IMG/VR virus record: IMGVR_UViG_3300042402_000298
Coordinates: 1 to 55,719 of that record
Length of the DNA stretch: 55,719 nt
Direction: 5' to 3' (one strand)
Origin: a virus
Lineage: Duplodnaviria > Caudoviricetes
Made by a program: the position numbers and the translations under genes
The notes under the pieces: model-generated
What the model saw: the letters and a program-made list of their open reading frames with translations, nothing else
Databases searched by the model: none
What the model was told of the DNA's origin: nothing
Shown: one piece after another, positions 1-55,719 of the stretch
Numbering within the stretch: the first letter of the stretch is position 1
Layout: every line of letters begins with the position of its first letter

Positions 1-158
1 TAGCACGTTAGGCTCATCGCCGTGGTGTGTTTCGTGCATGAAGTCACTAACACCTTCGCGATCAGCCTTTTCAATCGCGGCGTTGTATTCCGCCCTCGAC
101 ATGTTTTTAATTGACGGGCGATTGCTGGGCAAGCCAACACGAATCTCACGGTAGTTCT
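1..158. repeat. Terminal direct repeat (left copy), circular assembly overlap
   Basis: 1-158 equals 55562-55719 except g128 vs t55689; it lies inside an ORF that stays in frame across the junction. Confidence 0.95.
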
Positions 159-3048
159 CACCGCCCGGCATGTTGTAGTCAGGGTGCGAGTCAGGGCCAT
201 ACAGCGATGGCTTCTTACCTTCCAGTCGCTCTCTGTCTCTTGCGATTGACTGGCGCATCGTTTCAATCTTGCTCTCGTACTGCTGAACCAGTGGGCTCGT
301 GGGCGCAGTCTGTCTAACGCGATCTAGCTCAGCCTGCACCTGCTGGATGCCGCCCTCTCTGTATCGAATGCTTTCTTTCAAGGCGTCTGCGGTCTCTGAA
401 TACTCATCAGACTCTTGATACGGCCTGCGCACAGACTCACGCAGCGGGATGCGGTTCTGCTCAGCCAGCGCCACGACTTCATCTCGCGTCACGTTCGGCT
501 TACTCGCCAACTGATCGAGCCCCAGCTCAGCAATGCGCTCATCGTTGACGCCCTGCTCGAGCTTCTTCATGTCGCTGATAAATGCCGAGCCCGGCCCCTG
601 CTTGCGCTGCAGGTTCAGTGCTGCCTTCTCCGCGGGGTTGTAGAAGCCCACAGGATTTGCAGGCGCCTTTACCTTGCCCGGCTTGCCCGGAGGTGCGGCG
701 TACATTCTGGTGGGCTCTAAGGCCCGCTCAAGGCCTTCTTCAAGCATCTCTCGTGCGGTCGGGGCCAATGCCTTACCCAGCTTGTAGCTACCAACGCCGA
801 TAGTAGGCGCCAGTATCGAAGCCCCCATCTCCAGCATTGGGCGCTCTGTCCCAGAGGTCATGCCGGAGGACTTCATCATCTCCCGAGCAGCATCCGAACC
901 ATACGGGCCTTCGGGTGTCAAAGAAACTCGAGGGGCATATCCCATCTCGGGTTTTCGTAAAGGGCCGGTGTCCATCACCGACGCAGGCTTGCGAAGCAGC
1001 GGGTGCGTCTTCTGCACATGCTCGAGCGCCGAGCCAACCTCACCCACGATGTCCATCGGGGTGCCCACATATTCAGCCACGGGGCCGCGCATCAGTACGT
1101 CTTGCGCCGAGCCGGGCCGCACCATCGACCGGCGTTCTTTCTCAAATTGGGACTTCAGCAGATCAACCGTCTCTTGGAAGATCGAGGGGATCTTGAGCGG
1201 CTTCGGCTTGAACATCTCGCCCGATACGTCGCCCGGATTGCCACCGCCCTGCATGTGAACAACGCCGCCTTCGGCAAAGCCCTCACGCTGCAGGTGTCGC
1301 AGGTACTTGTCGGTGATCTCTTGGGTCGGGTATGGCTCACCCGGAGGTGTCATCGTCAGATCGTAGTAGCCCGGCTTCTTGCGCCCAGTGCGGCGTCTAA
1401 ACTCTTCGTTGAAGGTCGGCAGTGCGATCTCGTTCGGCACAGGCGTAAACAACTGCGCCAAGTCTTCGCCCTGCAGAATCTCGGGGAACGCAGGATGTAG
1501 GTCAGGGCGGCTTATAACGCCCCTGTCGAGCGTGAACAGCCGCGGGCCAATCGAGAACGTCTCAACGTCACGCAGCATCGGCTCGGCAGTCTCCATCATG
1601 ATTCTGCCGCCGGGGATGATCGAACCACCTCGGAGCGCACCGCCCAGCTTCTCACCCATCAGCAAGTCGGCAACGATAGCCCGCTTCTCGAACGTGTCGA
1701 TCTCTTTGCGCAGGCTCGGGTCGAGGATGTCGGCACCCTCACCGAAGTGCGGCTCGAGCGCCTTGTTGAACTTGGCACGAAGCTCTTCGTTCAGGTTGCC
1801 AGCCTTAGCCTCCTTTTGGAACGCCTTGTACAGCTTGTCGAACACGATCTCGTTCGACTTATGCTGGAACGGTGAGCCGATCAGGGTTGACCATAGGATG
1901 TCAGAGTCTGACTGGTTAGCGATGTTCTTTGCGGCGCCCGGCGTCTTCACGCCCCATGTGGCGCGAGCCTCGGCGTAGCGTGGGTCAACCAACTGCAGGC
2001 CAGAGAACGGAGGGCCACCTAAGTATTTAGCTGCCGTGCGGTCAGCCTGTGTGACGCGCAGCTTCTTGCCTTCAGCACCTACGTTACCCAGCGCCTCTGA
2101 CAGACGGGTCACGGGCTGATTCGCCGTGTACTCAGTCATCAGCTTGCCCGCCATGGCCCGCTCTGCCGCGGTCAAGGGACGCGCTGCCTCAACCATCGAC
2201 TGCAGGTCTTTGCCAGACTCCACAGCCTTCTCAGCGCCACGAGCCGCCTTCAGTGCCTTGCCGAGCTTACCGCCACCACCAGCCAGAGCCAGACCGCCTT
2301 CCGCCTTAGTGATGTCGGGGTTCTCGATGTCGTAGGTGCCTTGGTTGCCAATAGCGGACTTTACTTGCCTCGGATCGAAAGCAACCACTTCCTGCAACTT
2401 CCCATCTTTGTCGTAATAGAGAATGCCGTCATGCCCCATCTCCCTCAAAGCGTCAACATTGCTTTGCGAGAGCGTCCACGGATCGCCGCCCGTTTCCTTA
2501 AAAACTTCTCGCCAATTTTGCTCAGTGGTAATCAGTGGGTTCTTTATTTGCGTGTGCAGCGGCATCACGTTCGTGCCGGGGGTAAACATATTTGAGTTAC
2601 TACCGTACATGTACCCCGGCTTGTCGGGAATTTGCCTGATGTTATGAGCAGCGGGCTGAAACTCTTCGTTGGGGGTCATCCAAATGGCAGGGCCGCTTCG
2701 GTTTGGATTGTCGCCACCCGGCTTGAACTCAGAGAAATCCTTGGTGGTCGCGTGATACATCCGCTCTTTGACCGCTGACGGCTCGAGGAACTTCTGCTTG
2801 CCGCTCTCTCGGAGCTGGCCCTTGATCTCTCGCAGAGCCGCCTTGCCCTTGGTCTTATCTTCCACCTTCGGGGCGTAGAACGCATCCTTCTCAGCCTGCA
2901 GCCGCTCGAACATCAACTGCGCCTCGAGCTGGGCTTTGGGGGAGCCCTTCGGCAAGTTAGCCATTAATGCTTTGAAGTCAGGCTTTGACGCAGACTTCGC
3001 GCCCTTCGCCGCGTTCATGAGCTTCTTGATGTCTTTAGGGCTAGGCAT
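1..3048 (-). CDS. N-terminal 1016 aa of a 1426-aa multi-domain (polyvalent-type) protein with an ADP-ribosyltransferase-like (ART-PolyVal) domain; continues at 55561..54329
   Basis: ATG at 3048, 2 nt after the terL stop; I checked that the frame has no stop codon from 3048 to 1. Motifs MYHATTKDFSEF..GPAIWMTP..VMPLHTQIKNPL..GHDGILY..EVVAFDPRQVKSAIGNQGTYD resemble the ART-PolyVal pattern. Absent from the ORF track because it runs off the end. Confidence 0.85.
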   Translation of the reverse strand, partial: MPSPKDIKKLMNAAKGAKSASKPDFKALMANLPKGSPKAQLEAQLMFERLQAEKDAFYAPKVEDKTKGKAALREIKGQLRESGKQKFLEPSAVKERMYHATTKDFSEFKPGGDNPNRSGPAIWMTPNEEFQPAAHNIRQIPDKPGYMYGSNSNMFTPGTNVMPLHTQIKNPLITTEQNWREVFKETGGDPWTLSQSNVDALREMGHDGILYYDKDGKLQEVVAFDPRQVKSAIGNQGTYDIENPDITKAEGGLALAGGGGKLGKALKAARGAEKAVESGKDLQSMVEAARPLTAAERAMAGKLMTEYTANQPVTRLSEALGNVGAEGKKLRVTQADRTAAKYLGGPPFSGLQLVDPRYAEARATWGVKTPGAAKNIANQSDSDILWSTLIGSPFQHKSNEIVFDKLYKAFQKEAKAGNLNEELRAKFNKALEPHFGEGADILDPSLRKEIDTFEKRAIVADLLMGEKLGGALRGGSIIPGGRIMMETAEPMLRDVETFSIGPRLFTLDRGVISRPDLHPAFPEILQGEDLAQLFTPVPNEIALPTFNEEFRRRTGRKKPGYYDLTMTPPGEPYPTQEITDKYLRHLQREGFAEGGVVHMQGGGNPGDVSGEMFKPKPLKIPSIFQETVDLLKSQFEKERRSMVRPGSAQDVLMRGPVAEYVGTPMDIVGEVGSALEHVQKTHPLLRKPASVMDTGPLRKPEMGYAPRVSLTPEGPYGSDAAREMMKSSGMTSGTERPMLEMGASILAPTIGVGSYKLGKALAPTAREMLEEGLERALEPTRMYAAPPGKPGKVKAPANPVGFYNPAEKAALNLQRKQGPGSAFISDMKKLEQGVNDERIAELGLDQLASKPNVTRDEVVALAEQNRIPLRESVRRPYQESDEYSETADALKESIRYREGGIQQVQAELDRVRQTAPTSPLVQQYESKIETMRQSIARDRERLEGKKPSLYGPDSHPDYNMPGGENYREIRVGLPSNRPSIKNMSRAEYNAAIEKADREGVSDFMHETHHGDEPNVL

Positions 3049-3050
3049 AA

Positions 3051-4490
3051 TTAGATCGCGTAAGGGTTAGAACGCTTGCGCCGTCCTTCGACGTAATCGT
3101 CATCGTCGTCAACGGGCTGCGGGTCAATGTCCAGCCAGCCCGCGTCGCGCAAGTATCGCAGAGCCTGTGTGCAGCTGTCCACAAAGTCATCGTGTGTCGA
3201 TTCTGGGAAGGAACAGATCTGACTCACGAACCCTTCCGCCCAGTCACGCACGAAGCCCTTCTTGACCGCGCTCTCGGGGATGTACACACGGCGGTGGGCG
3301 ATGATGTTCGCCACAATCGACAGCCGCTGGATCTTGTCCGCCTTGCCGGGGTTGTAGGCTCTCACCGGCAGGTGTGCCCGCTGTAGGTCTTGGATCAGGG
3401 AGATGCCAGCAGCCTTGTCTTCAATAAGCACCAAGTCGACCTTCTTGCCCCCTGTAAAGTTTCCTCGGCCCTCTTCCTCGGGGTCAGCGCCATACGATAC
3501 TTTGAACTCTTCGATAACCTTCGGACGCAGATCCGGGTACTGCAGATGGTCTTGCCACGCATCGATGAGCATAACAGCCATCGGGCCGTCTTCGGGCTTA
3601 AAGACGCCCCACGTCGTTGCCGCGGTCGGATCATTGATCGTCTTCTCCGTGTAGGCGCAGTCATAGGACTGCAGGATGTACTCGAACTTGGGGAACGGCT
3701 TCTGTGCAGGCCAGAGCTTGAACATGTCCCGTTTCACGATGCCGCCCTCTTCGGGGTCGATCAGCTCGGCGTAAATCTCCTGCCGGCCTAGCTTGGTGCC
3801 CTCGTACTGCAGGATCTGCTTCTTGAAGTTGTCTGCAAGGTTGTTAATGTTCTGGTAAGTCGAGGCGGTTGTCAGAACTACGTCATCGCCTTCGCGCTCC
3901 ACCAGCTCGAGGATCAAGTCCTTCGGCCTCGGGGTCGTGGTGCAGAGTATCTTTGTCTTTTCGCCCAGACGAACGCCAAACTGGATCTGATTCCACGCCT
4001 CTTGCAAGTAGTCCCATGCCGCTAACTCATCAAGCCACGCGCCGTGGAACTGCGGGCCACGGAAACGCTCGGGCTCTGACGCCGGGATGCCAATCATGAT
4101 CGACCCGTTAATCAAGGTCAGGGTAGGACGCGGCGCTTTAATGTATTGGCGGATCAAGTCTTGAGGAATGACCGACAGTAGGCCAGAGTCGCCCTCAAAG
4201 CAAGTGCCCTGTACGTCAGAACTCGTTGGGGCAGACACTAGCCATCGAGTGCCCGGTTGCTGCCACGCCCACCAGCCTACCTGCTCAGCCGCGGTGCGGG
4301 TCTTCCCAGCGCCACGGCCTGCCAGCATCAGCCAGATGCCCCACCAATCACCGGGCGGAAGTATCTGGTAATCATGAGCCTTCAGCAGCCAGTTGGTGCG
4401 CCACTCAAACGCAGCTCGATACTCAGGCGGCAGCTTGGCGTACTGCGCTCGAGTCGCTGGGTCTTTCAGGATGTCTTCGATCTCGCTCAT
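3051..4490 (-). CDS. terL: Terminase large subunit
   Basis: Walker A AGRGAGKT, Walker B AWLDE, TTTP coupling motif, nuclease QSYD and HDDFVD motifs. Confidence 0.95.
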   Translation of the reverse strand: MSEIEDILKDPATRAQYAKLPPEYRAAFEWRTNWLLKAHDYQILPPGDWWGIWLMLAGRGAGKTRTAAEQVGWWAWQQPGTRWLVSAPTSSDVQGTCFEGDSGLLSVIPQDLIRQYIKAPRPTLTLINGSIMIGIPASEPERFRGPQFHGAWLDELAAWDYLQEAWNQIQFGVRLGEKTKILCTTTPRPKDLILELVEREGDDVVLTTASTYQNINNLADNFKKQILQYEGTKLGRQEIYAELIDPEEGGIVKRDMFKLWPAQKPFPKFEYILQSYDCAYTEKTINDPTAATTWGVFKPEDGPMAVMLIDAWQDHLQYPDLRPKVIEEFKVSYGADPEEEGRGNFTGGKKVDLVLIEDKAAGISLIQDLQRAHLPVRAYNPGKADKIQRLSIVANIIAHRRVYIPESAVKKGFVRDWAEGFVSQICSFPESTHDDFVDSCTQALRYLRDAGWLDIDPQPVDDDDDYVEGRRKRSNPYAI

Positions 4491-22600: not shown

Positions 22601-23473
22601 TTAACTGGTTTTTGTCGGGATAGCCGTCACACCTGTTGAAGCAGGCGTAAACGCAGTACCGCCAGCAAAGCTACCAAGCGCTGCCAAGAGACCCGTAATC
22701 TGCGCCAATGGGCTACCAGCGTAACCTTGAGAGCCGACACGCTGCTCTGTTGTACTCATTGGGATCTGGTATCCCTGCAGCAACTTGGCAAAGTTCTGCG
22801 CCTGCGCCATCGGGTAATCCAATTCGCGTTGCGCTTGAGCTTGCTCAGTCTGACCCAAGGTGCCCAAAGTTTCCAGACCCTTGATACCCCCGGCCTGCTG
22901 GATCTGACCCAAGCCACCTAACGTCTGACCTGCCTGCATTTGTCTTTGCAGATCCGCTTGCGCATTCGTTATTGCGTTTTGATAGCCAGTCTGCAAAGCA
23001 CTCTGCTGTTGACCTAGCAAGTTAGCCTGCATGTCTCTCAAAGACTGACCAGTGGCTTGAAACTGTCTCTGTGAGCCAAATTGACCCATAGAACCTGCAG
23101 CCCCTTTAAGGGCAGGCATGATGTTCTCGCGGATATTACGGCCCTGTAGACGCGCCATCTCATCGACGACGTTCTGCTGGTACGGGTTCATGTACTGGTT
23201 GACTAGCTGGGGCGCGGCTGTGGTGCCTGCAGCGGTCGCTAAGTTAGCCCCCGTACCCATCGTACCCATACCGGCAAAAGCCGCCTGTGGGGCCATCTGC
23301 ATAGCCTGCATTTGAAGCGGTGACAGACCAGCCACACCACCCATCTGCACACCCGCCTGACCCAAGTTGGCGATGTCTTGCAGGTAGTTGGTATAGAACT
23401 CGGGCGCTACCTGTCCCCGTTGGGTAATCTCGGTAGTTGCTGGTAGCGGACTACCTTGGAAAATGTCAGCCAT
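22601..23473 (-). CDS. Putative DNA ejection (pilot) protein
   Basis: Gln/Gly-rich; YMNPYQQNVVD and QFGSQR motifs typical of podoviral pilot proteins. Confidence 0.65.
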   Translation of the reverse strand: MADIFQGSPLPATTEITQRGQVAPEFYTNYLQDIANLGQAGVQMGGVAGLSPLQMQAMQMAPQAAFAGMGTMGTGANLATAAGTTAAPQLVNQYMNPYQQNVVDEMARLQGRNIRENIMPALKGAAGSMGQFGSQRQFQATGQSLRDMQANLLGQQQSALQTGYQNAITNAQADLQRQMQAGQTLGGLGQIQQAGGIKGLETLGTLGQTEQAQAQRELDYPMAQAQNFAKLLQGYQIPMSTTEQRVGSQGYAGSPLAQITGLLAALGSFAGGTAFTPASTGVTAIPTKTS

Positions 23474-24790: not shown

Positions 24791-27373
24791 CTAAATTCTT
24801 CTAAGTGCTGCCAGCCCACCACGGGCAAACATTTGCGGCTCCATCATCCCTTCAAAACGAGGCAGAACCGCGATCCCTAAACCCGTGTCACCCATTGCAT
24901 CTTTTTCATCACCACCCTGCCCAGAGAGCCGCTTGTACTGCGCATACCGTTGGGCAGGGGTCATCGGCATCGCTGTTGACAGCGCCATCATCTGACCCGT
25001 TTTTACCGCCTCATCTACCAGCGGGAATTCCTGCGTAGCAAGTTTTTCGTCTGGCAGAACTGGGAATTCCTCGCCAGCTACTTGGGTGTACATTTTCTGC
25101 GAAAGTTCATAATTTGCAAGCGCATCTCGCGCCGCTTGAACGGTTTCTGGCGTATTGGCAGATTGTAAAGCCACTAGCGCTTCATTGGCAGCGACTTTGG
25201 CTTGATTCATCTGGTATCTCAGGTTCTGCCCAAGCGGTTGCCCTCTGGCTGCGCTTAACTCTTGTAAAGCAGCTAAATCTTTAGCCCCTGTACCCGGCAA
25301 AGTTACCTTTAAACCTTGCCCAGCCTCGGATGGCAAGAGAGATTGAGATAAGCTGTACTTAGCCGATAACGCTTCAGTTTGGGCTGTTGCTGCTGCAGCA
25401 ATGTTTTCAGGCGTTGGATCAGCCTGTGCCTTAGCCATCAAGTCATTTGCTTTGGCTTCGGCGGCATCCAAGGCTGACTGCAGATTAGTCAATGCCTCGC
25501 CAGAAAATGGCGAATCTTTACCCGCACCAGCAGACAACAAACCCGTCAAATCACGCAAGTCTTGCGTAGGTAGCTTTAACAAAGATTGACTGAACTCTTT
25601 GCTTTCGGGTTTAATTGACTCAAAAAACTTTTTTGCCTCAAGAGCGGCGGGCAACTCTGCTTTTTGCGTTGCGCTAATTAGCGTTCGCAAATCACCAGTA
25701 ACTGCAGCATTCTTTAGCTCATCAAGAAATGCGGACTCTTCTGCGACAGAGAAAATGGGTACTTTAGATCCAGCGGGGATCTGAACTCCAGAAGCATCTT
25801 TCAAGACTTGTTGCTTATAAGTCTCTGTGTTTGGGTCGAAAATAATTCGACTGACCGCCCCGTTTTGGTAGGTTACATCTCTGGCTTGAAAAACTTCACC
25901 TTGCTCATTTTTTACATTATAAATATCACCAACAGATTGGGTTTCTGGTGAATACCTTAAGTATCCAGACGAAAACAACAATGGGTCTTGCTCAGAAGCC
26001 TTCGAAGTGTTTACATCAATAACGGTTTTGCCACCAACCTCAGAGCCTTCAAGTGCTGCTAATTTTTGACCGTATTGAGGATAGTACGGCGTAGCTCCCT
26101 CAATTGATGCAGTGCCATCTGCTTTTTTCTTTACCGATTCCGCCTCAATCTTACGCCTTGCCTCATCCATCTCTGAATCGGCAAAACTAGACAATGCATT
26201 AAACATCGCCTGCTCAGGGGACTGACCAGCAGATATTGCCTGCGTGTATTCACCAGTAGCACGACCAATCGCAGCACTATCACTTGCCTTGGCAACACCA
26301 GCAGCGGTTACGCCACCCACAAAACCAGCAGCACCAGATTTGGCTACATCTTGACCGGTTACTTGCGCGTAAGTTGCCTGCTTAAAGGCATTCTCAATGC
26401 CAGCGTTGAGAACCTCATTTGATGAGGTCGCTTTGACTGCCTTCAAAACATCTGGAACTTGACTTGCCGCGACCGTACCAACAATGCTTTTTAAAACGTC
26501 CTCAGGTTTGGCGCCTTGAACAAGAGCAGCAGTTGCGTTAATACCAATTTGGTAGGGAAGAGACAGGCCACCGGTAACAATTGAAAAACCAGCGTTTGTA
26601 ATAAATGGCAATGCTTTGCCAACAAAGCCCAAAATGCCAGAAGCATTTTTTCTTTCAATATCAGAGTATGCGTTGTAATTAAACGTGTAATCAGCTACAG
26701 CTTGATCAGTAAGAATTTTTGCTGAGTCCTCAATTGAAAACCCAGCAGTTGCAGCTCGCTTAACAATTGTTTCAATCTCTTTTTTTAACGCCTCTTTGTT
26801 TGCCTCTCTTATCTCCAAAGCCTTTGGTGTTGGCTTGTTTCTTCCAAAGTCATCTGGGTTTATAAACAGATTGTAATAATTACTTCCAAGAGCCTTTAAC
26901 TCATTAGTGAAAAATGTTTTTGGGTTGTCGTAAAATGTTTTTGCTTCAACAGCATTGTTTTCAACAAAAAAATTCTCAGAAGGGAGCTTTGTTCCAGTTC
27001 TTTTTTCAACAGCATCTTGCGAATAATAATTTTGATAAGCGTCAGCAATTTCTGTAGGAGATGAATACCAGCGAGCCGCTGCTTGCTGCGTATCTCCACT
27101 AACAAAATTTTCTGGGCCAAACGCTTGAGAATAAGCATTTGCACCAACAAAACTACGTTGATTTACATTAAATGCATTAGCCAAAGTTTGAGGCTCAACA
27201 TTTACCCCGCGACTTTTTAAAATATCAGAAGCCTTCTTTGCTACCTCTTGTGTGTTTTTATTTTTTTCATTCCTAATAGACCTTTGATTGTAAGAACTGT
27301 TTGGTCTAATAGCGCCCTGCGCAACAGTTAACGAAGGCGGAGTAACATAAGGATTAATCGTAGTCGTAGCCAT
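24791..27373 (-). CDS. Large putative ejection protein
   Basis: 860 aa; hydrophobic Gly-rich central segment; ends MFARGGLAALRRI. Confidence 0.6.
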   Translation of the reverse strand: MATTTINPYVTPPSLTVAQGAIRPNSSYNQRSIRNEKNKNTQEVAKKASDILKSRGVNVEPQTLANAFNVNQRSFVGANAYSQAFGPENFVSGDTQQAAARWYSSPTEIADAYQNYYSQDAVEKRTGTKLPSENFFVENNAVEAKTFYDNPKTFFTNELKALGSNYYNLFINPDDFGRNKPTPKALEIREANKEALKKEIETIVKRAATAGFSIEDSAKILTDQAVADYTFNYNAYSDIERKNASGILGFVGKALPFITNAGFSIVTGGLSLPYQIGINATAALVQGAKPEDVLKSIVGTVAASQVPDVLKAVKATSSNEVLNAGIENAFKQATYAQVTGQDVAKSGAAGFVGGVTAAGVAKASDSAAIGRATGEYTQAISAGQSPEQAMFNALSSFADSEMDEARRKIEAESVKKKADGTASIEGATPYYPQYGQKLAALEGSEVGGKTVIDVNTSKASEQDPLLFSSGYLRYSPETQSVGDIYNVKNEQGEVFQARDVTYQNGAVSRIIFDPNTETYKQQVLKDASGVQIPAGSKVPIFSVAEESAFLDELKNAAVTGDLRTLISATQKAELPAALEAKKFFESIKPESKEFSQSLLKLPTQDLRDLTGLLSAGAGKDSPFSGEALTNLQSALDAAEAKANDLMAKAQADPTPENIAAAATAQTEALSAKYSLSQSLLPSEAGQGLKVTLPGTGAKDLAALQELSAARGQPLGQNLRYQMNQAKVAANEALVALQSANTPETVQAARDALANYELSQKMYTQVAGEEFPVLPDEKLATQEFPLVDEAVKTGQMMALSTAMPMTPAQRYAQYKRLSGQGGDEKDAMGDTGLGIAVLPRFEGMMEPQMFARGGLAALRRI

Positions 27374-30664: not shown

Positions 30665-31297
30665 TTAGCTATCCTGTGCAACCGCCTGACGGTCGCCGAG
30701 ACGTTGAATGTTTTCAGTCTTCAGTTGTGCCACGATCTTATCGTACTGGGCTTGCCACAAAGGCAATCGCTCATCGTTCTTAAGGAACGGCATCGCCTGC
30801 AGTAACGACCCATAAAGCATGGCTTGAGGCGCATACTGGGTAAACCAGTTCTGCTGATTGGTCGCATCTAAGGGCTGGACTTCTTCGTAGTACATCACCT
30901 CAAAAGTGTAGGTATCGTCAGGCGTAGGCGCCACCAACCAATGAGAGTAGTCATAGTCCCCGTAGTACCGTGGAACGCCTTCCTCCGCGTCGTCAGCCCA
31001 ATACTGGCGCATGTATTCGTATGTCCTCAGAAAGACCGGCTGGCGCTCTCCAGCGACCGTGACGTTCATCGACACCGTCTTACGCCACCGCGCAGGCTTC
31101 GTGATTACCGCGTTGCCAGCAACCATTGTCGATTGATTAACAGTCAGGTTGCCAAGAAACTTGATCTCGCTTGCTAAGACTTGCTCAGCCAGCATGATGA
31201 AGGTAGGTATCTTATTCAGAGTTGCGGTGTCTGTACGCTCCAGATAGCTGGAGATGTCGTTGTACAGCGAGTTGTAGGTCATTGAGACAGCCATCAC
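30665..31297 (-). CDS. Head-tail adaptor protein
   Basis: MTYNSL..YLERTD..FIMLAE..APTPD..NW..AMLYGSL pattern. Confidence 0.7.
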   Translation of the reverse strand: MMAVSMTYNSLYNDISSYLERTDTATLNKIPTFIMLAEQVLASEIKFLGNLTVNQSTMVAGNAVITKPARWRKTVSMNVTVAGERQPVFLRTYEYMRQYWADDAEEGVPRYYGDYDYSHWLVAPTPDDTYTFEVMYYEEVQPLDATNQQNWFTQYAPQAMLYGSLLQAMPFLKNDERLPLWQAQYDKIVAQLKTENIQRLGDRQAVAQDS

Positions 31298-31770: not shown

Positions 31771-32252
31771 TTGGGCGCCATGAAGTAAAGCGCAATCTCA
31801 TCGTTGCGGCGCTTCACCAGACCCGGCAAAACCTTGCCACCCGCCTTAGTGAACTTTAAGAACTCTTGCCTTACACCTTCAAAGTCCCCGCGGTTATGCT
31901 TCTGCCGCAAAGTCGACCTCTGAAGGGTGCCTAGCCCAACATTGAATGCAAAGCTGACCAACGCTCCCATGCGATTTTCGTTAAGATGGTCAGGGCAGTA
32001 ACGAAGAACACCAGCGATAAAACGCTGTAGGTCTTTCTCAAGGATCGAATCAACTTCTTCTTTGCTAAATACACGGAAGTCCTCCACCTTAAGCGCAAAC
32101 TTGTCACGCTGATCTATCGGCATCTTGCCCTGCTCGGGGTACAGCACATGCCCCACGCCAATCGTCCACAACTTAGCCGGGCACTTGTACGGCTTGTATC
32201 GGACACCTTCATGATGTTTTATGCAAGCGATAACTGCATTAGAGAGTCGCAT
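31767..32252 (-). CDS. Endolysin, GH24 lysozyme
   Basis: HEG..YKC..WTIGVGH (E-x8-C-x5-T), ALVSFAFNVG, GLVKRR; start revised to 32252. Confidence 0.9.
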   Translation of the reverse strand: MRLSNAVIACIKHHEGVRYKPYKCPAKLWTIGVGHVLYPEQGKMPIDQRDKFALKVEDFRVFSKEEVDSILEKDLQRFIAGVLRYCPDHLNENRMGALVSFAFNVGLGTLQRSTLRQKHNRGDFEGVRQEFLKFTKAGGKVLPGLVKRRNDEIALYFMAPK

Positions 32253-32784
32253 GTTTACACCTATCAAAATGCCATCTTTGCATAGCGCCTTGGCCCCCAG
32301 TTTTAGCGCAATAGGGGCAAGCAACTACAATCCTTTTAACATCTTTTAAATGTAAGTTTGTCCTGCCCTTTGCCGCCTCTGACAACCGCCTTCTATGTGT
32401 TTCAGAAAAGGTAATTTTTTTGCCAAACATGGGATTTTTATCCCCCATTTTGGCTGCAGCAATATTTCTTCTGTATTCGTCAGACCTTAACTTTCCTTTT
32501 GGGCTTGGCGGAACCCCGCCGCCTTTACAAATATTCCAACCAATATTGGGCCACGGCCTTAACAACAACTCAATTTGCTTGGCAACTTCAAAAGTAACAT
32601 TTTGAGCTATTACCAAAAATTTAACCTTGTCACCATATTTTTTTAATGCGTTCCTCAAATGAGCATTTGATTGCTTTCTGTTCCAACCATGCTGCGAAAA
32701 GCGCAACTCTAAATTTTTGGTGATGCCAACATACCCGCCATATAGGTTATCGCTAATAGCAATGTGATAAACCGCGTATGTCAT
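32239..32784 (-). mobile_element. Free-standing GIY-YIG homing endonuclease with NUMOD3-like motif
   Basis: AVYHI..YVGIT..RF..H; GDKNPMFGKK..SETHRRRLS; visibly AT-richer than its neighbours. Confidence 0.8.
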
Positions 32785-45662: not shown

Positions 45663-46742
45663 TTAACACTTACCGCCACGCTTTTTGCCGGGAGAAACTG
45701 TACGACTAACCTCACGCTCAGTCGTTGTTACTGACCCAGAACCCTTCATACCCTTCTTGATTGCCTCGTAGCCTTGTTTAAGGCGATCTGGCAGCTCTTT
45801 CATGGTCTGGAAAGGGCTCTTAATAGCTCGCATCACCGCGGCGCGTTCCGCCTCGTTCTCCGCCTTTTCGTCAGCATAGAACTTGTCGTAAGCCTCGGAT
45901 TGCTCCTTGTCGGACATAGCGCCACCACCTGCATACTTCTTCACCTTGCCGCCTTTGCGGTATGTACCGCTGAGCTGCGAGATGCTTACAGACGATGGAG
46001 GACGCTTACTTCCTTGCGGCATCTTGACGGGGCGACCATCGTCCTGAACCGATCCCCCGTCAGCAAACTTTTTTAGGGCACCGCCCTTCTTGTAGCCGCC
46101 GCCGTTGCCCTTCTTTACGCCACCAGTAGTGGTGTTAGTTACGCCGGCAGGTGTAGTGCTGACGTTACCTTCAACGCCGCCACCCTTGGCATACTTAGCC
46201 GTACCACCTTTTTTGTAGCCACCAGCGTTACCCATCTTCACGCCACCAGTTTTAGCCGGCGAATGATCAGGGGTTGCGGTGTTCATCTTGGTGTTGACGT
46301 AGCCCTCAGCGCCCTTTTTAGAGGCACTCACAGGGATTACGTTGCCGCCATCTTTGTAGCCGCCTTGACCCATCGCTACGCCACCTGTTTTCAGACCCTT
46401 GTGGGCCTTCGAAGCAGGCATGTCAGCGTGTTTCTCTAGGGCAGAGCCGCCATCCTTCATTACAGGACGAACGGGCATCTTAGAGGCCATCATTGCCTTA
46501 CGGCGAGATGCCATAGACGGCTTCTTAGGCGATACGCCAGCAGGCATTGCCGGAGGCGTACCCATAGCGGTCATTGGAGATGGCATAGCTGGGCTTGCAG
46601 AACGCAGGCCACCCATCGCCATCTTTTTGGCCTTAGTGGTAGAACCACCACTCTTCATTGCTACCGCGCCGCCCTTTTTGAGCTTCAAAATAACAGACGG
46701 CTCCGTGGTCATCATTTTGACCATTGGTTTAAATTGGCCCAT
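45663..46742 (-). CDS. Low-complexity basic protein with about 14 hydrophobic-x-x-GG repeats
   Basis: LKKGG, MKSGG, MAMGG, MKDGG, LKTGG, YKDGG, YKKGG x2, YAKGG, FADGG, YRKGG, YAGGG and others. Confidence 0.8.
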   Translation of the reverse strand: MGQFKPMVKMMTTEPSVILKLKKGGAVAMKSGGSTTKAKKMAMGGLRSASPAMPSPMTAMGTPPAMPAGVSPKKPSMASRRKAMMASKMPVRPVMKDGGSALEKHADMPASKAHKGLKTGGVAMGQGGYKDGGNVIPVSASKKGAEGYVNTKMNTATPDHSPAKTGGVKMGNAGGYKKGGTAKYAKGGGVEGNVSTTPAGVTNTTTGGVKKGNGGGYKKGGALKKFADGGSVQDDGRPVKMPQGSKRPPSSVSISQLSGTYRKGGKVKKYAGGGAMSDKEQSEAYDKFYADEKAENEAERAAVMRAIKSPFQTMKELPDRLKQGYEAIKKGMKGSGSVTTTEREVSRTVSPGKKRGGKC

Positions 46743-47215: not shown

Positions 47216-47881
47216 TTAAGAGGGTTCCAAATATTTGATTGCGCTGCGCAAAATCTCTGGGCTGTCAAAAAATAAGCCAAGACCTCTATTGCACTTTGTG
47301 CAGAGAAGACCCCTTGGCTTTCCTGTTGCATGATCATGGTCAACTGGCATGGCAATTACCTTTTGTTTAATCTTTACCGTTTCCGGTTTAGAACAAATTG
47401 CACAAACACCATTTTGGTCAGAAAGTTTTTTATGGTACCACTCAAGAGAGACACCATATTTCCTCTGTAAGTCTTGATTAGCATAGTAATCAGGATTTGC
47501 TGCACGAGCCTGCTTTCGCCACTCTTTTGCATATTCCTTTTCGGAATCAGAGGTTGTTTCAATTTCCTTCCAATAGAAATTGTCTTTCGACCAAATGGCA
47601 TTTGGATTAGGTCGGCATGATTGAGATCGTTCCGGTTTTTCTGGAACCTCTGCAACAAACCGCCAAAAATCATTAAACCATTCGGATGCCATATCCTGTT
47701 GATGGTATCGCCGCAAATTGCACCACGCTTTATAGGCAGGATGCTTATTGCGTTTACCCCAATCGTCAGGACGACTGACATCAATTTCTCCAGTTCTTTG
47801 AACCCTCATGTAGTGCTTTCGGCACAAGGCTTTTGCAACTACAGGCTCAGAACAATTAACCACACAACACTTTTTTGGCAT
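47216..47881 (-). mobile_element. Free-standing Endonuclease VII-type (HNH) homing endonuclease
   Basis: QNGVCAIC..VDHDHATGKPRGLLCTKCNRGLG; N-terminal Cys-rich finger; AT-richer; start revised to 47881 by SD spacing. Confidence 0.85.
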
Positions 47882-47888
47882 TTGCATC

Positions 47889-49477: not shown

Positions 49478-50020
49478 TCAGCCACTAAAAGTGGGCGTCG
49501 GCACTTGATCATCCATTTGCCTAATTCCTTCCCCTTCCGCCTGTCCGAGACTACGTCCCGAACTATCCCTGCCCTGAATGTTTTCTGCCTGTACGCGGAT
49601 CTTATTGGCCTCTTCCATCGGTGCATCGTGGTGGAAGTGGGTCATAATTTCTTGGTACTGATCCATCGGGATCTTAAACAGCAACATTTCATTGCAAGCG
49701 ATATACCCCACATGCTCGCCAGCCTTTACGCGGTAATTTTCGTAACCCTTGATGTCGTCAGCCAGAACTGGGACGTAACCAAGGCGAACCCGCTTATCGA
49801 TGCTGTCGTATGTGTTAGTCGTCGATAACCAGATGGTGTGCCATCCGGGAATCTTGGGAGAATCAGGCAACGCGCTTTGTGTCCATTCGTCTTTCCACAT
49901 CTTTCGACGCTCTTCTGACGATACGAACTGTTCCTCCGGTGCCTCACGAATCGGATCGTGACTCACGCGACTTGCTTCGCGTCCACCTGCAGAGAGAGAT
50001 TTTTTTAAACGAGAATCCAT
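49478..50020 (-). CDS. Conserved head-module protein of unknown function
   Basis: PGWHTIWL..RLGYVPV..LLFKIP; between scaffold and capsid genes. Confidence 0.75.
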   Translation of the reverse strand: MDSRLKKSLSAGGREASRVSHDPIREAPEEQFVSSEERRKMWKDEWTQSALPDSPKIPGWHTIWLSTTNTYDSIDKRVRLGYVPVLADDIKGYENYRVKAGEHVGYIACNEMLLFKIPMDQYQEIMTHFHHDAPMEEANKIRVQAENIQGRDSSGRSLGQAEGEGIRQMDDQVPTPTFSG

Positions 50021-51042: not shown

Positions 51043-51480
51043 TTAGATGAAAGCCCGCATTTCCAGCGGATCACCAGTTACTTTTGCGATAACTTCATGG
51101 TCGTTCAGGATCATGAATAGCGCTGGGTCTTCAAAGTCATCGTCGCCCGGCACTTTGGCCTCCCAACGATCACCACCCCACTTTGGAACGCGAATGTAGT
51201 CGCCTACCTCGCACCATGCGCCCTCAGGCCACGGCTCCATCGTGTCGCGCTTACGAAATGCCAAAGGCCCGATCATCAGGACTTTGCCAACCATGTTGTT
51301 CCACTTCTCGGTCTCTTTGGTCTCTTCGACCAAGATAATCCCGGCACTGGTTGCTTTCTTCTTGGTACGACGTAGCTGCACCAAAATTCTCGCCCCAAGG
51401 GGCTTAGCACCGGGGTCTACGCTCGGGAATGCCCAAGCCAATTCAGCTTCGTTAGAAGCTACCGGTTCACTCATGTTCAT
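51043..51480 (-). CDS. groES: Co-chaperonin GroES (Cpn10)-like
   Basis: KPLGARILV..TSAGIIL..GKVLMIGP..VGDYI..ILNDHEVIAKV. Confidence 0.85.
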   Translation of the reverse strand: MNMSEPVASNEAELAWAFPSVDPGAKPLGARILVQLRRTKKKATSAGIILVEETKETEKWNNMVGKVLMIGPLAFRKRDTMEPWPEGAWCEVGDYIRVPKWGGDRWEAKVPGDDDFEDPALFMILNDHEVIAKVTGDPLEMRAFI

Positions 51481-54328: not shown

Positions 54329-55561
54329 TTAGTTAACTGTCCAGATAGATTTCACAGCGCCGCCCTCTGCAAATGCAGGCGCCTGCACATATAGACCGCC
54401 ATCAGACATGTCGGGGTCGCTGCTGTACTCATTCACTTCGCCGCCATCAGCCATGCCAAGATGCTTCTGCAGCATCTCATTAAAGCGGGATTCGTAGTCC
54501 ACGGCGCCACCCTCAGCCATGCCGAGGTGCTTTTGAAGCATCTCGTTGAAACGTGATTCGTAATCGACCGCACCACCTTCTGCCATCGTGACTGCGCCAC
54601 CAGCTTTGTACGACTGCCCCTTCTTGGCGGAGTTACGCATCGCGTCGGTCAGGTCGATGAAGTAGACCGTCTCAGTTTTATTGCCCAAGGCGCTTTGGAA
54701 TTCGCGCACATATTTACTTACAGAGCGTTCGCCCTCGTTAGGCCAAAATGCATTTGCAAATCGACCATTTACCCCATTGGGATACTTGTTTTCAAACCAA
54801 TCTCTGAAAGCGGGCCAAGTATTTTGTTCTTTACCCACAACCAACTTAGTCTCACCTAACTTACCACCGTGCTGCTTGGCGTACTTCTCGAGGAAGTTCT
54901 TGTAGGTCTTGTCGTAATACTGCTTCATACCCTCGCCGCCGACTTTGAGGTCGAGGCCAGCAAGCCTATTCACTCCTTGATTGGCAGTTGCCTCTCCAGC
55001 GCCAGAAACAATCTTTTCAGCAATCTCTTTGCCTAATTGCGCTTTAATTTCATCTTTTGTGAAATTGCCTTGCAGCACAACATTCCCGTCTACGCCCTGC
55101 GCCTCAACATAATATTTCCCTGAGCTTGAAGGCCCGCGACTAAAATCAATCGCACCAACATGTTTTGACAAGTCATAGCGATCAGCCTGCCGCGCACCCG
55201 TCGTCAGGTACACGCGATCCATGCCGGTGTCTGCAGCTTCTTTGATCGCCCGCTTCAGGCCAAGCTGATACCAGTTGTCTTTGAAGGGGGCGTTGGGAAC
55301 ACCTTGAGCCGCTTGAGTAATTTTGCTATGCCAATCATCCACTCGTTTGCTCAAAGCGTTCCATTCTGCATCTGACAGATTTCGTTTGCCGCCATAAAAC
55401 TTATTAAAGTCTTCTTTGGCTAACGCCTCTATGTCTTGAACAGATTGATTACCCTTATATCCTCTCTCGCGCCCTTTCTGATGCCAGTCAGACTGCAGCT
55501 CATCGATCAACAGACCACGCTTGCCTTCTTCGTCAACATGATCAGCGACACGCAGGTGGAA
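54329..55561 (-). CDS. C-terminal 410 aa of the 1426-aa protein that begins at 3048
   Basis: In frame across the circular junction; LIDELQSDWHQ domain and MAxGG repeats. Confidence 0.85.
   Translation of the reverse strand, partial: FHLRVADHVDEEGKRGLLIDELQSDWHQKGRERGYKGNQSVQDIEALAKEDFNKFYGGKRNLSDAEWNALSKRVDDWHSKITQAAQGVPNAPFKDNWYQLGLKRAIKEAADTGMDRVYLTTGARQADRYDLSKHVGAIDFSRGPSSSGKYYVEAQGVDGNVVLQGNFTKDEIKAQLGKEIAEKIVSGAGEATANQGVNRLAGLDLKVGGEGMKQYYDKTYKNFLEKYAKQHGGKLGETKLVVGKEQNTWPAFRDWFENKYPNGVNGRFANAFWPNEGERSVSKYVREFQSALGNKTETVYFIDLTDAMRNSAKKGQSYKAGGAVTMAEGGAVDYESRFNEMLQKHLGMAEGGAVDYESRFNEMLQKHLGMADGGEVNEYSSDPDMSDGGLYVQAPAFAEGGAVKSIWTVN
54455..54586 (-). repeat. Two tandem 66-bp coding repeats (MAEGGAVDYESRFNEMLQKHLG)
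   Basis: Identical 22-aa peptides; 14 of 22 codons differ synonymously. Confidence 0.95.
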
Positions 55562-55719
55562 TAGCACGTTAGGCTCATCGCCGTGGTGTGTTTCGTGCAT
55601 GAAGTCACTAACACCTTCGCGATCAGCCTTTTCAATCGCGGCGTTGTATTCCGCCCTCGACATGTTTTTAATTGACGGGCGATTGCTGTGCAAGCCAACA
55701 CGAATCTCACGGTAGTTCT
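55562..55719. repeat. Terminal direct repeat (right copy)
   Basis: Duplicate of 1-158. Confidence 0.95.

What the first reader, a model, noticed from the sequence alone, without database searches (positions are those of the whole stretch)
54455..54586. 22-aa peptide duplicated with 14 synonymous and zero amino-acid changes, bounded by MAxGG
Seen: ATG GCA GAA GGT GGT GCG GTC GAT TAC GAA TCA CGT TTC AAC GAG ATG CTT CAA AAG CAC CTC GGC versus ATG GCT GAG GGT GGC GCC GTG GAC TAC GAA TCC CGC TTT AAT GAG ATG CTG CAG AAG CAT CTT GGC. Fourteen of the 20 degenerate codons differ. Inference: strong purifying selection on a short amphipathic peptide (AVDYESRFNEMLQKHLG), perhaps with selection for DNA divergence that prevents recombinational collapse. 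It resembles a multi-copy peptide precursor or a bivalent binding motif, such as an injected inhibitor.
Basis: partly seen in the sequence, partly recalled or inferred. Interest (0 to 1): 0.7.

Follow-up and report, generated by a model that had tools for sequence, protein, structure and literature searches.

The report
Repeated helix in phage cargo tail
The duplicated 22-residue peptide is a pair of old, strongly conserved helices in the floppy C-terminal tail of a giant protein that this phage probably packs into its head and injects. The tail most likely docks that cargo at the head's portal and does not make free peptides.

Summary
On the minus strand, 54586-54521 and 54520-54455 both encode MAEGGAVDYESRFNEMLQKHLG, with 14 differences, all synonymous.

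The repeat lies in the last ~100 residues of a 1426-aa ORF that the window ends cut. The contig ends overlap by 158 nt, so the genome is a circle. The ORF sits between the large terminase and the portal and carries an ART-PolyVal domain, so it is a phage "polyvalent" cargo protein.

The two copies are old paralogues. Each is closer in DNA to its counterpart in other phages than to its neighbour, and their synonymous sites are as different as random codon choice predicts (P=0.27). No selection for DNA divergence is needed.

- 63 relatives carry this tail, and 29 of them have the same helix pair with 1-8 differences. The window's 0 is the extreme.
- AlphaFold2 gives two isolated helices between flexible x-A-x-GG-x-V hinges and no fold.
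- The variable helix positions lie on one face.
- The tail is fused to at least five unrelated upstream domains.
- It is co-conserved with the portal block.

Best reading (about 0.5): a portable, bivalent docking or loading tail for head-packaged cargo. Its partner is untested. A peptide-precursor role is unlikely.

The parts
54521..54586 (-). Repeat copy 1 (22 codons, MAEGGAVDYESRFNEMLQKHLG); residues 1342-1363 of the 1426-aa protein; predicted helix YESRFNEMLQKHL
   Evidence: repeat; AF2 helix at 386-398 of the 462-aa piece, which is 27-39 of the 103-aa tail; DNA closest to copy 1 of L001, 5/60
54455..54520 (-). Repeat copy 2 (same 22 residues, 14 synonymous differences); residues 1364-1385
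   Evidence: helix at 408-420 of the piece, 49-61 of the tail; DNA 2/60 from copy 2 of L008, 7/60 from L007, 13/60 from its own copy 1
54587..54640 (-). Lead-in of the tail: end of the conserved domain (..MRNSAKKGQSY) and first hinge K-A-GG-A-V-T
   Evidence: KGQSY and GG-A-V conserved; this is the junction where different upstream domains are joined to the tail
54332..54454 (-). Distal tail: MADGGEVNEYSSDPDMSDGGLYVQAPAFAEGGAVKSIWTVN. It holds three more GG hinges, the Y-x-x-x-PD-M-S-D-GG core and the conserved C-terminal end.
   Evidence: A64, G66, G67, Y72, P76, D77, G82, F90 invariant in 50 aligned tails; AF2 pLDDT about 30 in the 462-aa model and 49-58 in the tail-alone model
54329..55561 (-). 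C-terminal 410 codons plus stop of the giant ORF: a confidently folded conserved domain of unknown fold, followed by the tail
   Evidence: frame continuity across the contig join; 9824 homologues at E<=1e-3; pLDDT 80-97 up to residue ~366 of the piece; no Pfam, PDB-sequence or Foldseek match
1..3048 (-). N-terminal 1016 codons of the same giant ORF (ATG at 3048). Bases 1-158 repeat 55562-55719.
2335..2760 (-). ART-PolyVal (ADP-ribosyltransferase of polyvalent proteins) domain, residues 97-238
   Evidence: PF18760, E 5.9e-12, 47 bits against a cut-off of 31.2
2269..2307 (-). Internal GG hinge after the ART domain (KAEGGLALAGGGG), preceded by YDIENPDITK, which resembles the tail core
   Evidence: the same place holds hinges in L002, L003, L008, L012
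1240..1278 (-). Second internal GG hinge (FAEGGVVHMQGGG) between domains
   Evidence: homologous 'YADGGAVHMAGGG' in L008
51831..54317 (-). Portal gene, 11 nt downstream of the giant ORF's stop; candidate docking partner, co-conserved with the tail
   Evidence: phrog_1216 portal, E 6.7e-18; 75-90% nt identity from the tail through the portal in L007, L008, L012; one natural cargo-tail-portal fusion
3051..4490 (-). Large terminase gene immediately upstream of the giant ORF
   Evidence: Terminase_6N E 2e-24, Terminase_6C E 1.3e-7

Best explanation
SHOWN. The two 22-residue units are old paralogous copies of a short amphipathic-helix module. Each copy is flanked by a flexible hydrophobic-A-x-G-G-x-V hinge. 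They lie in the ~100-residue disordered C-terminal tail of a 1426-aa accessory protein encoded between the large terminase and the portal of a ~55.6-kb circularly assembled phage. The protein has an ART-PolyVal domain and belongs to the phage polyvalent proteins, a class thought to be packed in the head and injected with the DNA. The copies differ at 14 synonymous sites because the duplication is old and synonymous sites are saturated. They are identical in protein because one face of each helix is under strong purifying selection. The window is the extreme of a family in which the two helices usually differ at 1-4 of 16 core residues.

INFERRED. The tail is a portable docking or loading module. 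It attaches whatever cargo domains lie upstream to the head-assembly machinery, most probably the portal vertex. The two like helices would bind two equivalent sites of a symmetric partner, and the GG hinges would supply the slack. A disordered end held at the portal would also be placed to lead the protein out through the channel at infection. My odds: what it is and how it evolved, about 0.9; docking or loading function, about 0.5; portal as the partner, about 0.25.
For: Anatomy:
- Searches show one ORF across the 158-nt end overlap.
- Searches give the order TerL, giant ORF, portal, and the PF18760 hit.

Age of the duplication:
- copy 1 against copy 2 differ at 13/60 nt. Copy 2 differs from L008 copy 2 at 2/60, from L007 copy 2 at 7/60 and from L001 copy 2 at 2/30. 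Copy 1 differs from L001 copy 1 at 5/60.
- One search shows synonymous saturation (6 identical degenerate codons against 7.8 expected, P=0.27).

Selection:
- 0 of 200,000 random substitution sets leave the peptide unchanged.
- (50 aligned tails): D, Y, E, F, N, M, L, Q and H are conserved. The variable positions 29, 30, 33, 37 (and 51, 52, 55, 59) fall in a 100-degree arc of the helix.

Disorder:
- domain pLDDT 80-97; the two helices 45-54; the rest about 30.
- (tail alone, 50 sequences): pLDDT 53, pTM 0.17, only helices 27-39 and 49-61, hinges lowest.

Portability:
- 63 proteins of 815-1846 aa carry the tail.
- It is joined at an x-x-GG-x-V hinge to at least 5 unrelated upstream sequences.
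- 24 of 63 have a precomputed PF18760 and 4 have PF14284.

Two helices kept:
- 29 of 63 have two DY..FN.MLQ.H helices, differing at 1 (3 proteins), 2 (11), 3 (8), 4 (5), 5 (1) or 8 (1) residues.
- Other lineages hold other look-alike pairs.

Link to the head block:
- nucleotide identity to L007, L008 and L012 rises to 75-90% from the tail on and stays there through the portal. L012's upstream part is unrelated (~46%).
- Caulobacter phage RW has the same head module (portal 47% identical) but no giant gene, so the protein is accessory cargo.
- one relative (P0327, 1719 aa) has the cargo domain, a GG-helix tail and the portal in one reading frame.

Papers:
- Iyer et al. 2017 (PMC5512222, passages read) say polyvalent proteins of phages are likely packaged in the capsid, and that the C-terminal region of N4 vRNAP is required for encapsidation.
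- A phi24B preprint (10.64898/2026.04.10.717836, passages read) found a polyvalent protein in virions by proteomics.
Against:
- Co-conservation with the portal may be plain linkage, because the tail is the last ~300 nt before the portal gene.
- The fusion P0327 is a single sequence from a single contig, 1 hit among 7999 candidates scored, and could be a sequencing or gene-calling artefact.
- P0160 and P0162 have a different distal end (..ANGGTARLY). If so, the extreme C-terminus is not tightly matched to the portal.
- Relatives with the same portal family lack the helices altogether (L002-L006), so the helices are not required for this head type.
- Similar GG-plus-helix modules occur at N-terminal and internal places in related cargo proteins. 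That fits a general linker as well as it fits a docking signal.
- Packaging of this protein in virions is assumed from its class, not shown.
Confidence: 0.5

Rival explanations
1. Processing sites. The x-A-[ED]-GG motifs are cleavage sites for a maturation or other protease. Cleavage would cut the polyvalent protein into its domains and release the 22-residue units as free internal peptides, like the internal peptides of the T4 head.
For: - The motif lies at domain borders inside the giant protein and six times in the tail.
- An acidic residue before GG is preferred: E29/A10/N4 at tail position 21, E31 at position 43, and E42/D8 at position 65.
- A related GG motif is conserved near the N-terminus of the portal, in 97 of 120 homologues.
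- A GG motif also lies near the N-terminus of the scaffold-like ORF.
- Iyer 2017 proposes proteolytic processing of polyvalent proteins.
Against: - No protease family was found in any of 73 non-nested ORFs of 70 aa or more. The one exception is the tail-fibre intramolecular chaperone Peptidase_S74.
- The capsid protein aligns to its Pfam model from residue 6, so it has no propeptide.
- The residue before GG is often A, K, N, G or F in relatives.
- The helix sequences themselves are under strong selection on one face, which a mere spacer between cut sites would not need.
Confidence: 0.12
2. Host-directed motif. After injection the two helices bind a host protein, for instance to place the ADP-ribosyltransferase on its target or to block a host factor.
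For: The protein belongs to a class taken to be injected. The units are amphipathic helices with one conserved face. Two copies would give avidity.
Against: - The tail follows the head-gene block and not the effector domains. It is attached to at least 5 unrelated upstream domains, and only 24 of 63 tail-bearing proteins have the ART domain.
- It is always at the extreme C-terminus of the gene next to the portal.
- Helix sequences differ between phage lineages while the pair stays alike within each protein. That fits a co-evolving phage partner at least as well as a host one.
Confidence: 0.15
3. Passive flexible linker or ejection leader. The tail has no specific partner. It is a disordered, acidic, glycine-hinged end that keeps the protein extended, or that threads first through the portal and tail channel.
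For: AF2 gives no fold. GG-plus-helix modules also occur between domains and at N-terminal places in related proteins. GG motifs are clustered in other probable internal proteins of this phage.
Against: A passive spacer would not keep 9-10 of 14 helix residues, or the invariant Y..PD...GG...F core, across proteins that are otherwise 45% identical. It also would not confine variation to one helical face.
Confidence: 0.15
4. Double-glycine (RiPP or bacteriocin-type) multi-copy peptide precursor, cut after GG by a C39-type peptidase.
For: The GG pairs are invariant. Hydrophobic residues fall at -4, -7, -12 and -15 from the GG, which resembles the recalled leader consensus (recall, not a call).
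Against: No C39 peptidase, ABC exporter or modification enzyme was found in 73 ORFs. The units are the end of a 1426-aa virion-type protein, not of a small precursor. The same modules occur singly or inside proteins in relatives.
Confidence: 0.02
5. Recent duplication kept from collapsing by selection for synonymous divergence.
For: The two units have identical protein sequence but 21% DNA divergence.
Against: Divergence equals that expected from random codon choice. Each copy has a closer DNA counterpart in other phages than in its own neighbour. In 29 of 29 relatives with the pair, the copies differ in protein.
Confidence: 0.03

Closest known systems
Phage polyvalent proteins (Iyer, Burroughs, Anand, de Souza, Aravind 2017, PMC5512222)
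   Same: It is a giant multidomain protein with an ART-PolyVal domain, encoded beside the terminase and portal genes, in a class proposed to be packed in the head and injected.
   Different: In that paper 'glycine' and 'linker' each occur 0 times, so the GG-hinged helix tail does not appear to be described there. This protein has no MuF or MPTase domain by Pfam. Its conserved C-terminal domain has no Pfam model.
C-terminal encapsidation region of coliphage N4 virion RNA polymerase gp50
   Same: The C-terminal part of a giant injected protein is what gets it into the capsid (as cited in PMC5512222).
   Different: In N4 this is a 1400-aa folded region with a zincin-like domain. Here it is about 100 disordered residues with two helices, and the function is not shown.
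T4 capsid targeting sequence of internal proteins and the ADP-ribosyltransferase Alt (recalled; T4 head reviews appeared in the listing and were not read)
   Same: A short portable peptide directs an ADP-ribosyltransferase and other cargo into the prohead.
   Different: The T4 signal is N-terminal, about 10 residues, binds the scaffold core and is removed by the prohead protease. Here the signal is C-terminal and repeated, and no protease was found.
MuF / SPP1 gp7 portal-binding domain of head-packaged and MuF-toxin proteins (recalled; mentioned in PMC5512222)
   Same: It is a constant module that ties variable cargo to the portal, and the gene lies next to the portal gene.
   Different: There is no sequence relation (no Pfam MuF hit). 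MuF is a folded domain, usually N-terminal to the cargo.
Encapsulin cargo-loading peptides, and the helix-turn-helix coat-binding end of the P22 scaffolding protein (both recalled)
   Same: These are C-terminal, disordered or short-helical, sometimes repeated tags that bind the inner face of an HK97-fold shell. They are portable between cargos.
   Different: There is no motif similarity. The partner here is unknown and may be the portal and not the shell. AF2 does not predict a stable helical hairpin (pTM 0.17).

Membership tests
Phage polyvalent proteins | One very long polypeptide with several unrelated domains | tested here: met
   1426 aa. It holds an ART-PolyVal domain at 97-238, a separate conserved C-terminal domain, GG hinges between domains and a mosaic middle in relatives.
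Phage polyvalent proteins | Carries a domain typical of the class | tested here: met
   PF18760 ART-PolyVal, 47 bits against a cut-off of 31.2
Phage polyvalent proteins | Encoded in a phage with a terminase-portal packaging system, beside virion genes | tested here: met
   TerL, giant ORF, portal, GroES-like, scaffold-like, capsid protein
Phage polyvalent proteins | Present in the virion and injected | not testable with these tools
   This needs virion proteomics. A different polyvalent protein was found in phi24B virions.
Cargo-targeting signals of phage heads (T4 CTS, N4 gp50 C-region, MuF) | Terminal module shared by cargos with unrelated domains | tested here: met
   63 proteins carry the tail, with at least 5 kinds of upstream sequence at the junction.
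Cargo-targeting signals of phage heads (T4 CTS, N4 gp50 C-region, MuF) | Sequence relation to a known targeting domain (MuF, MPTase region) | tested here: not met
   No such Pfam family on either part of the protein
Cargo-targeting signals of phage heads (T4 CTS, N4 gp50 C-region, MuF) | Needed and sufficient for incorporation into the procapsid | not testable with these tools
   No experiment was possible, and the complex predictor was not available.
Double-glycine leader / RiPP precursor | Small precursor with a dedicated C39 peptidase or exporter nearby | tested here: not met
   The units end a 1426-aa ORF. 0 of 73 ORFs hit a C39 peptidase or ABC exporter family.
Double-glycine leader / RiPP precursor | Invariant GG at the end of each unit | tested here: met
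   G66/G67 are 50 of 50; the other GG pairs are present in 40-49 of the 44-49 sequences with a residue there.
Encapsulin-type cargo-loading peptide | Disordered C-terminal tag | tested here: met
   AF2 pLDDT is 26-54 over the tail, with no fold.
Encapsulin-type cargo-loading peptide | Binds the inner face of the HK97-fold shell protein | not testable with these tools
   The complex predictor was not available.
Recent tandem duplication / gene conversion | The copies are each other's closest DNA relatives | tested here: not met
   13/60 nt between the copies, against 2/60, 5/60 and 7/60 to counterparts in other phages

The most novel reading that the evidence does not exclude
The GG-hinged helix tail is a general, portable loading tag of a very abundant group of environmental phages (at least 8000 portal homologues). 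Any protein fused upstream would be carried into the head and injected. The acidic hydrophobic-A-[ED]-GG-x-V hinges of the cargo would pair with the basic hydrophobic-K-K-GG-x-V repeats of a co-occurring internal protein (window ORF 45663-46742). Together they would form an internal protein bundle anchored at the portal, so the two identical helices would be the bivalent clamp of this system.
Probability: 0.2. Interest if true: 0.7.

Novelty: new variant of a known kind. Interest (0 to 1): 0.45.

Why it matters
How giant polyvalent effector proteins get into phage heads is unknown, apart from the MuF-linked ones and N4. A roughly 100-residue portable tail is shared by at least 63 cargo proteins with different domains and is co-conserved with the portal block. 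That offers a concrete, testable candidate for the loading signal in an abundant group of uncultured phages. If it works as proposed, it could be used to load chosen proteins into phage heads in laboratory phage-bacteria systems. It would also explain how effector domains are swapped freely while packaging is kept.

The finding is also a clean example of how identical peptides with saturated synonymous sites arise: old paralogy plus selection on one helix face. No selection against recombination is needed.

Tried and rejected
- Complex prediction of tail with portal: the tool answered that it is not available.
- Fold of the conserved domain before the tail: Foldseek against PDB gave 0 matches at E<=1e-3. 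PDB sequence searches with the 462-aa piece, the 103-aa tail, the 438-aa ORF and the 180-aa ORF gave nothing significant.
- Search for a prohead protease: the ESM Atlas gave only unnamed viral clusters for the 180-aa ORF. Pfam and PHROGs gave no protease.
- Earlier notes of this scan: three look-ups returned nothing.
- Glu-specific prohead-protease sites (T4 or phiKZ type, recalled): set low, because the residue before GG is not fixed and no protease was found.
- Mimicry of the GroES mobile loop (recalled GGIVL-type motif; the phage encodes a GroES-like protein): rejected. The residues after GG are not a hydrophobic triplet.
- Internal translation starts at the three ATGs: no ribosome-binding-like sequence lies before them in the sequence read.
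- A stable helical hairpin like the P22 scaffold end: not predicted (pTM 0.17).
- Other occurrences of the helix motif in the window: none outside the two copies.
Full report
OBSERVATION. The reverse complement of window 54455-54586 is two 66-nt units. Both translate to MAEGGAVDYESRFNEMLQKHLG. They differ at 14 nucleotides in 14 codons, all third-position and synonymous; 8 codons are identical, two of them ATG. Tandem Repeats Finder reports one array with period 66, 2.2 copies, 80% matches and no indels. Only 40 of 198 possible single changes are synonymous, and 0 of 200,000 random sets of 14 substitutions left the peptide unchanged.

WHERE IT LIES. The units are on the minus strand, in an ORF that runs off the high end of the window (54329-55717, 462 codons). 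A second minus-strand ORF starts at 3048 and runs off the low end.
- The window is the whole contig.
- Its first 158 bases repeat bases 55562-55719 with one mismatch. This gives a P/H difference between the two read-outs. The contig is therefore a circular assembly of about 55,561 bp.
- The two ORFs are in phase across the join and form one protein of 1426 aa. The 1016-aa and 462-aa pieces share 52 residues. The repeat is residues 1342-1385.
- On the minus strand the order is small terminase, large terminase and the giant ORF. Eleven bases later comes the portal. After it come a GroES-like protein, a scaffold-like 336-aa protein, two small proteins and the capsid protein.
- Residues 97-238 of the giant protein match ART-PolyVal (PF18760, 47 bits against a cut-off of 31.2). 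By size, domain content and context it is a phage polyvalent protein in the sense of Iyer et al. 2017. That paper proposes that such proteins are packed in the head and injected (PMC5512222, passages read).
- A polyvalent protein of phi24B was found in virions by proteomics (preprint 10.64898/2026.04.10.717836, passages read).

THE TAIL. AlphaFold2 on the 462-aa piece (35-sequence alignment) gives a confident domain up to about residue 366 (pLDDT 80-97). After it come two isolated helices, at 386-398 and 408-420. These are the two repeat units, with pLDDT 45-54. The remainder has pLDDT about 30.
- The tail alone, with 50 aligned tails, gives mean pLDDT 53 and pTM 0.17. The same two helices are the only secondary structure, and confidence is lowest at the GG motifs.
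- The tail is therefore a disordered region made of three kinds of element:
  - six hinges of the form hydrophobic-A-x-GG-x-V (KAGGAV, MAEGGAV twice, MADGGEV, MSDGGLYV, FAEGGAV);
  - two amphipathic helices;
  - a conserved distal part, Y-x-x-x-PD-M-S-D-GG-x-F-x-Q-A-P-A-F-A-x-GGAVKSIWTVN.
- In 50 aligned tails the helix residues D, Y, E, F, N, M, L, Q and H are conserved. For example, N is present in 47 of 48 and 46 of 50 sequences, and H in 41 of 48 and 43 of 46.
- The variable positions (tail numbering 29, 30, 33, 37, and 51, 52, 55, 59) fall at 200-300 degrees on a helical wheel, so they lie on one face (the angles are my arithmetic). This pattern is expected for a helix that binds a partner through the other face.

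AGE OF THE DUPLICATION. Over the first 60 nt, copy 1 and copy 2 of the window differ at 13 sites.
- Copy 2 differs at only 2 sites from copy 2 of L008, at 7 from copy 2 of L007 and at 2 of 30 from the partial copy 2 of L001.
- Copy 1 differs at 5 sites from copy 1 of L001 and at 10 from copy 1 of L007.
- The copies are therefore orthologous across phages, and the duplication predates their divergence.
- Under the phage's own codon usage, two independent encodings of this peptide would share 7.8 of 20 degenerate codons. Six are shared, P(<=6)=0.27. Synonymous sites are simply saturated, and no selection for DNA divergence is needed.
- A word-indexed search with the last 103 residues found 63 proteins of 815-1846 aa (only lengths of 810-2310 aa were searched, so this is a lower bound).
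- Of these 63, 29 have two helices of the DY..FN.MLQ.H type, 18 have one and 16 have none by that pattern.
- Within the 29, the two 16-residue cores differ at 1 (3 proteins), 2 (11), 3 (8), 4 (5), 5 (1) or 8 (1) positions. None differ at 0. The window's perfect identity is the end of a distribution, not a separate phenomenon.

MODULARITY. A crude parser counts two helix-sized modules in 48 of 64 tails. In most of the 9 it counts as three, the extra module is an upstream domain segment. The 5 it counts as none include tails with other helix pairs that it missed.
- Lineages differ in which pair they hold. Pairs seen include:
  - DYESRF twice;
  - QLTFAKANQLLQ with DYESRF;
  - DLTAHLNNLLRQHH with NLEEKLNNLLRQHH;
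  - FDYESHVNNIF with FDYEGHVNKIM;
  - NLDDIVAKAF with NLDEIVSQAF;
  - HPAVEKFAASLP with HPAVTEFVAKLA.
- In most of these the two helices of one protein resemble each other more than they resemble helices of other lineages.
- A few relatives have one helix (P0014, P0195). Some with the same portal family have none (L002-L006, whose tail is ..SYA[DF]GGGVFNTDPDITD[AS]GRIIP..).
- The tail is joined, always at an x-x-GG-x-V hinge, to at least five unrelated upstream sequences. The usual one is the ..KGQSY domain. The others are an ..EPIVQKYLPQ.. domain (6 proteins), a ..YYTLDDFK.. domain (5) and others.
- Only 24 of the 63 have a precomputed PF18760, and 4 have PF14284.
- 46 of the 63 also share a conserved N-terminus of the PKDIKK type. 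Constant ends therefore flank a variable middle.
- The domain before the tail is very common: 9824 representatives at E<=1e-3 and 2246 at E<=1e-30, in proteins of up to 6796 aa. It has no Pfam, PDB-sequence or Foldseek match.

LINK TO THE HEAD GENES.
- In 100-nt bins, identity of the window to L007, L008 and L012 is mosaic (40-89%) in the giant gene. It rises to 75-90% from the tail onward and stays there through the portal.
- L012's giant gene is unrelated (~46%) until the tail begins.
- The order terminase, giant gene, portal holds in L007, L008, L009, L012, L002 and L003.
- The portal family is very large: all 8000 scored candidates have E<=1e-10, and the best 120 are 69-100% identical.
- Among isolates the nearest portals are Caulobacter phages RW, KcrB, RLK and GB2A (47%). 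Roseobacter phages CRP-901 and CRP-902 and Pelagibacter phages HTVC027P and HTVC023P are at 31-33%.
- Phage RW has the same head module but goes from terminase through a tRNA straight to the portal, with no giant gene. The protein is therefore accessory cargo.
- A search for longer portal homologues found one protein among 7999 candidates. This is P0327 (1719 aa, one member, one contig). In it the conserved cargo domain, GG-plus-helix modules and the portal lie in one frame. This gives weak support for closeness of the cargo end and the portal N-terminus. It may be an artefact.

THE HINGE MOTIF ELSEWHERE.
- The strict motif [AS][ED]GG occurs 13 times in open frames of 80 aa or more. Twelve of the 13 are on the coding strand.
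- The looser motif [FYMLIVK][AKS]xGGx[VIAL] was counted against 300 shuffles per ORF. Results:
  - the tail-bearing part of the giant ORF holds 5 (0.12 expected; 0 of 300 shuffles reach it);
  - the basic 359-aa ORF 45663-46742 holds 8 (0.23 expected; 0 of 300);
  - the 438-aa ORF 23466-24782 and the N part of the giant ORF hold 2 each;
  - several other virion-module ORFs hold one each;
  - no replication gene holds any.
- The motifs of the 438-aa ORF are kept in its orthologues. Its residues 313-391 match tape-measure PHROGs (E 1e-5 to 6e-4).
- The portal N-terminus keeps [DE]GG[AVLI]x[VIM] in 97 of 120 homologues.
- The 359-aa protein has homologues in G001-G003 (3 of 3) and in MW202545. 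That record also has an 890-aa GG-module protein before its portal. RW has no homologue of the 359-aa protein. RW's frames hold 9 single motif hits and no cluster.
- This co-occurrence rests on few, related genomes.

MECHANISM. Shown: the anatomy, the age of the duplication, selection on one helical face, disorder, portability, and co-conservation with the head block. Inferred: the tail is a docking or loading module that ties variable cargo to the head-assembly machinery. The two like helices would bind two equivalent sites of a symmetric partner and the GG hinges would give slack.
- The portal vertex is my first choice of partner. The reasons are gene order, analogy with MuF-type proteins and the N4 vRNAP C-region, low-copy logic for a 157-kDa cargo, and the one fusion.
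- The capsid inner face, the scaffold and the basic GG-repeat protein are open alternatives.
- No binding was tested, because the complex predictor was not available.
- Points against this reading:
  - linkage alone could explain the co-conservation;
  - the helices are absent in some relatives with the same portal family;
  - similar modules occur inside and at the N-terminal side of related proteins.

RIVALS.
- Protease processing (0.12). The motifs lie at domain borders and prefer an acidic residue before GG. However, no protease was found in 73 ORFs, the capsid protein has no propeptide, and the residue before GG varies.
- Host-directed binding after injection (0.15). This is possible, but the tail tracks the head genes, not the effector domains.
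- Passive linker or ejection leader (0.15). This fits the disorder, but not the conserved helix face and the invariant core.
- Double-glycine peptide precursor (0.02) and selection for synonymous divergence (0.03) are close to excluded.

NOVELTY. The protein is a new member of a known class. The GG-hinged two-helix tail as a portable terminal module is, as far as I could check, not described.
- In Iyer 2017 the words 'glycine' and 'linker' each occur 0 times.
- Full-text searches on polyvalent proteins with portal or ADP-ribosyltransferase terms, on capsid targeting and encapsidation and on polyvalent proteins in virions listed no paper on such a tail. For some searches only titles and abstracts of the listings were seen.
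- A paper on HTVC023P-type pelagiphages mentions GroES as a core gene but no such protein (PMC9599517, passages).
- Supplementary files were not consulted.

I rate it a new variant of a known kind (a cargo-loading signal), with the function unproven, and set interest at 0.45.

Noticed in passing
window 1-158 and 55562-55719: The contig ends are a 158-nt direct overlap with one mismatch (G/T). So the record is a circular assembly of about 55,561 bp, and the window ends cut the giant ORF. The mismatch changes one residue (P/H) between the two read-outs.
   Followed up: yes
window 45663-46742 (-): A 359-aa very basic protein with no Pfam or PHROG hit. It is packed with hydrophobic-K-x-GG-x-V repeats (8 by the loose motif against 0.23 expected; more by eye). 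Homologues occur in relatives that also have a GG-tailed cargo gene (G001-G003, MW202545), but none occurs in Caulobacter phage RW, which has no such cargo. It may be an internal DNA-binding protein, or a partner of the acidic GG motifs.
   Followed up: partly
window 23466-24782 (-): A 438-aa protein whose conserved C-terminal third (..GDGQSDDIPAMLADGEYVFDADTV..) matches tape-measure PHROGs. Yet the phage has an SU10-type adaptor (PF24175 at 30665-31297) and no sheath or tube hit. MADGG and MAxGG motifs are conserved in its orthologues. The neighbouring 860-aa ORF (24791-27373) ends in FARGGLAALRRI. These are probably ejection or internal proteins.
   Followed up: partly
window 54641-55561 (-) and relatives: The domain before the tail (motifs ..ELQSDWHQ.., ..VGGEGMKQYYD.., ..KKGQSY) has 9824 representative homologues, in proteins of up to 6796 aa. 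Its AF2 model is confident, but it has no Pfam model and no PDB sequence or Foldseek match. It is a large family of polyvalent-protein domains that has no Pfam model.
   Followed up: partly
protein P0327: A single metagenomic protein of 1719 aa joins the cargo domain, GG-helix modules and a portal (44% identical to the window's) in one frame. Its portal part also ends with ..FATGGLV... It is either a real cargo-portal fusion or an artefact.
   Followed up: no
window 2269-2345 (-): Right after the ART domain, the sequence GTYDIENPDITKAEGGLAL resembles the distal tail core (..EVNEYSSDPDMSDGGLYV). So the 'PD-x-x-x-GG' element is itself repeated within the protein.
   Followed up: no
window 51043-51480 (-): A GroES-like co-chaperonin (Cpn10, E 2.4e-6) lies inside the head module, between the portal and the scaffold-like gene. 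It is conserved in all relatives looked at. Some sources mislabel the neighbouring portal as 'chaperonin GroES'.
   Followed up: no
window 32239-32784 (-) and 47216-47887 (-): Two homing-endonuclease-type genes lie inside the structural module. One has GIY-YIG plus NUMOD3. The other is Endonuclease VII / HNH-like and lies directly after the capsid gene.
   Followed up: no
relatives of the giant protein: 46 of 63 tail-bearing proteins also share a conserved N-terminal ~60 residues (MPSPKDIKK..LPKG..QLEAELMF). So both ends are constant and the middle is mosaic. This recalls N4 vRNAP, where one end serves injection and the other encapsidation.
   Followed up: partly
window 49478-50020 (-): A 180-aa head-module protein is conserved from this phage to Caulobacter phage RW. 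It has no Pfam, PHROG, PDB or named Atlas match, and its role is unknown (protease, decoration or assembly factor).
   Followed up: partly
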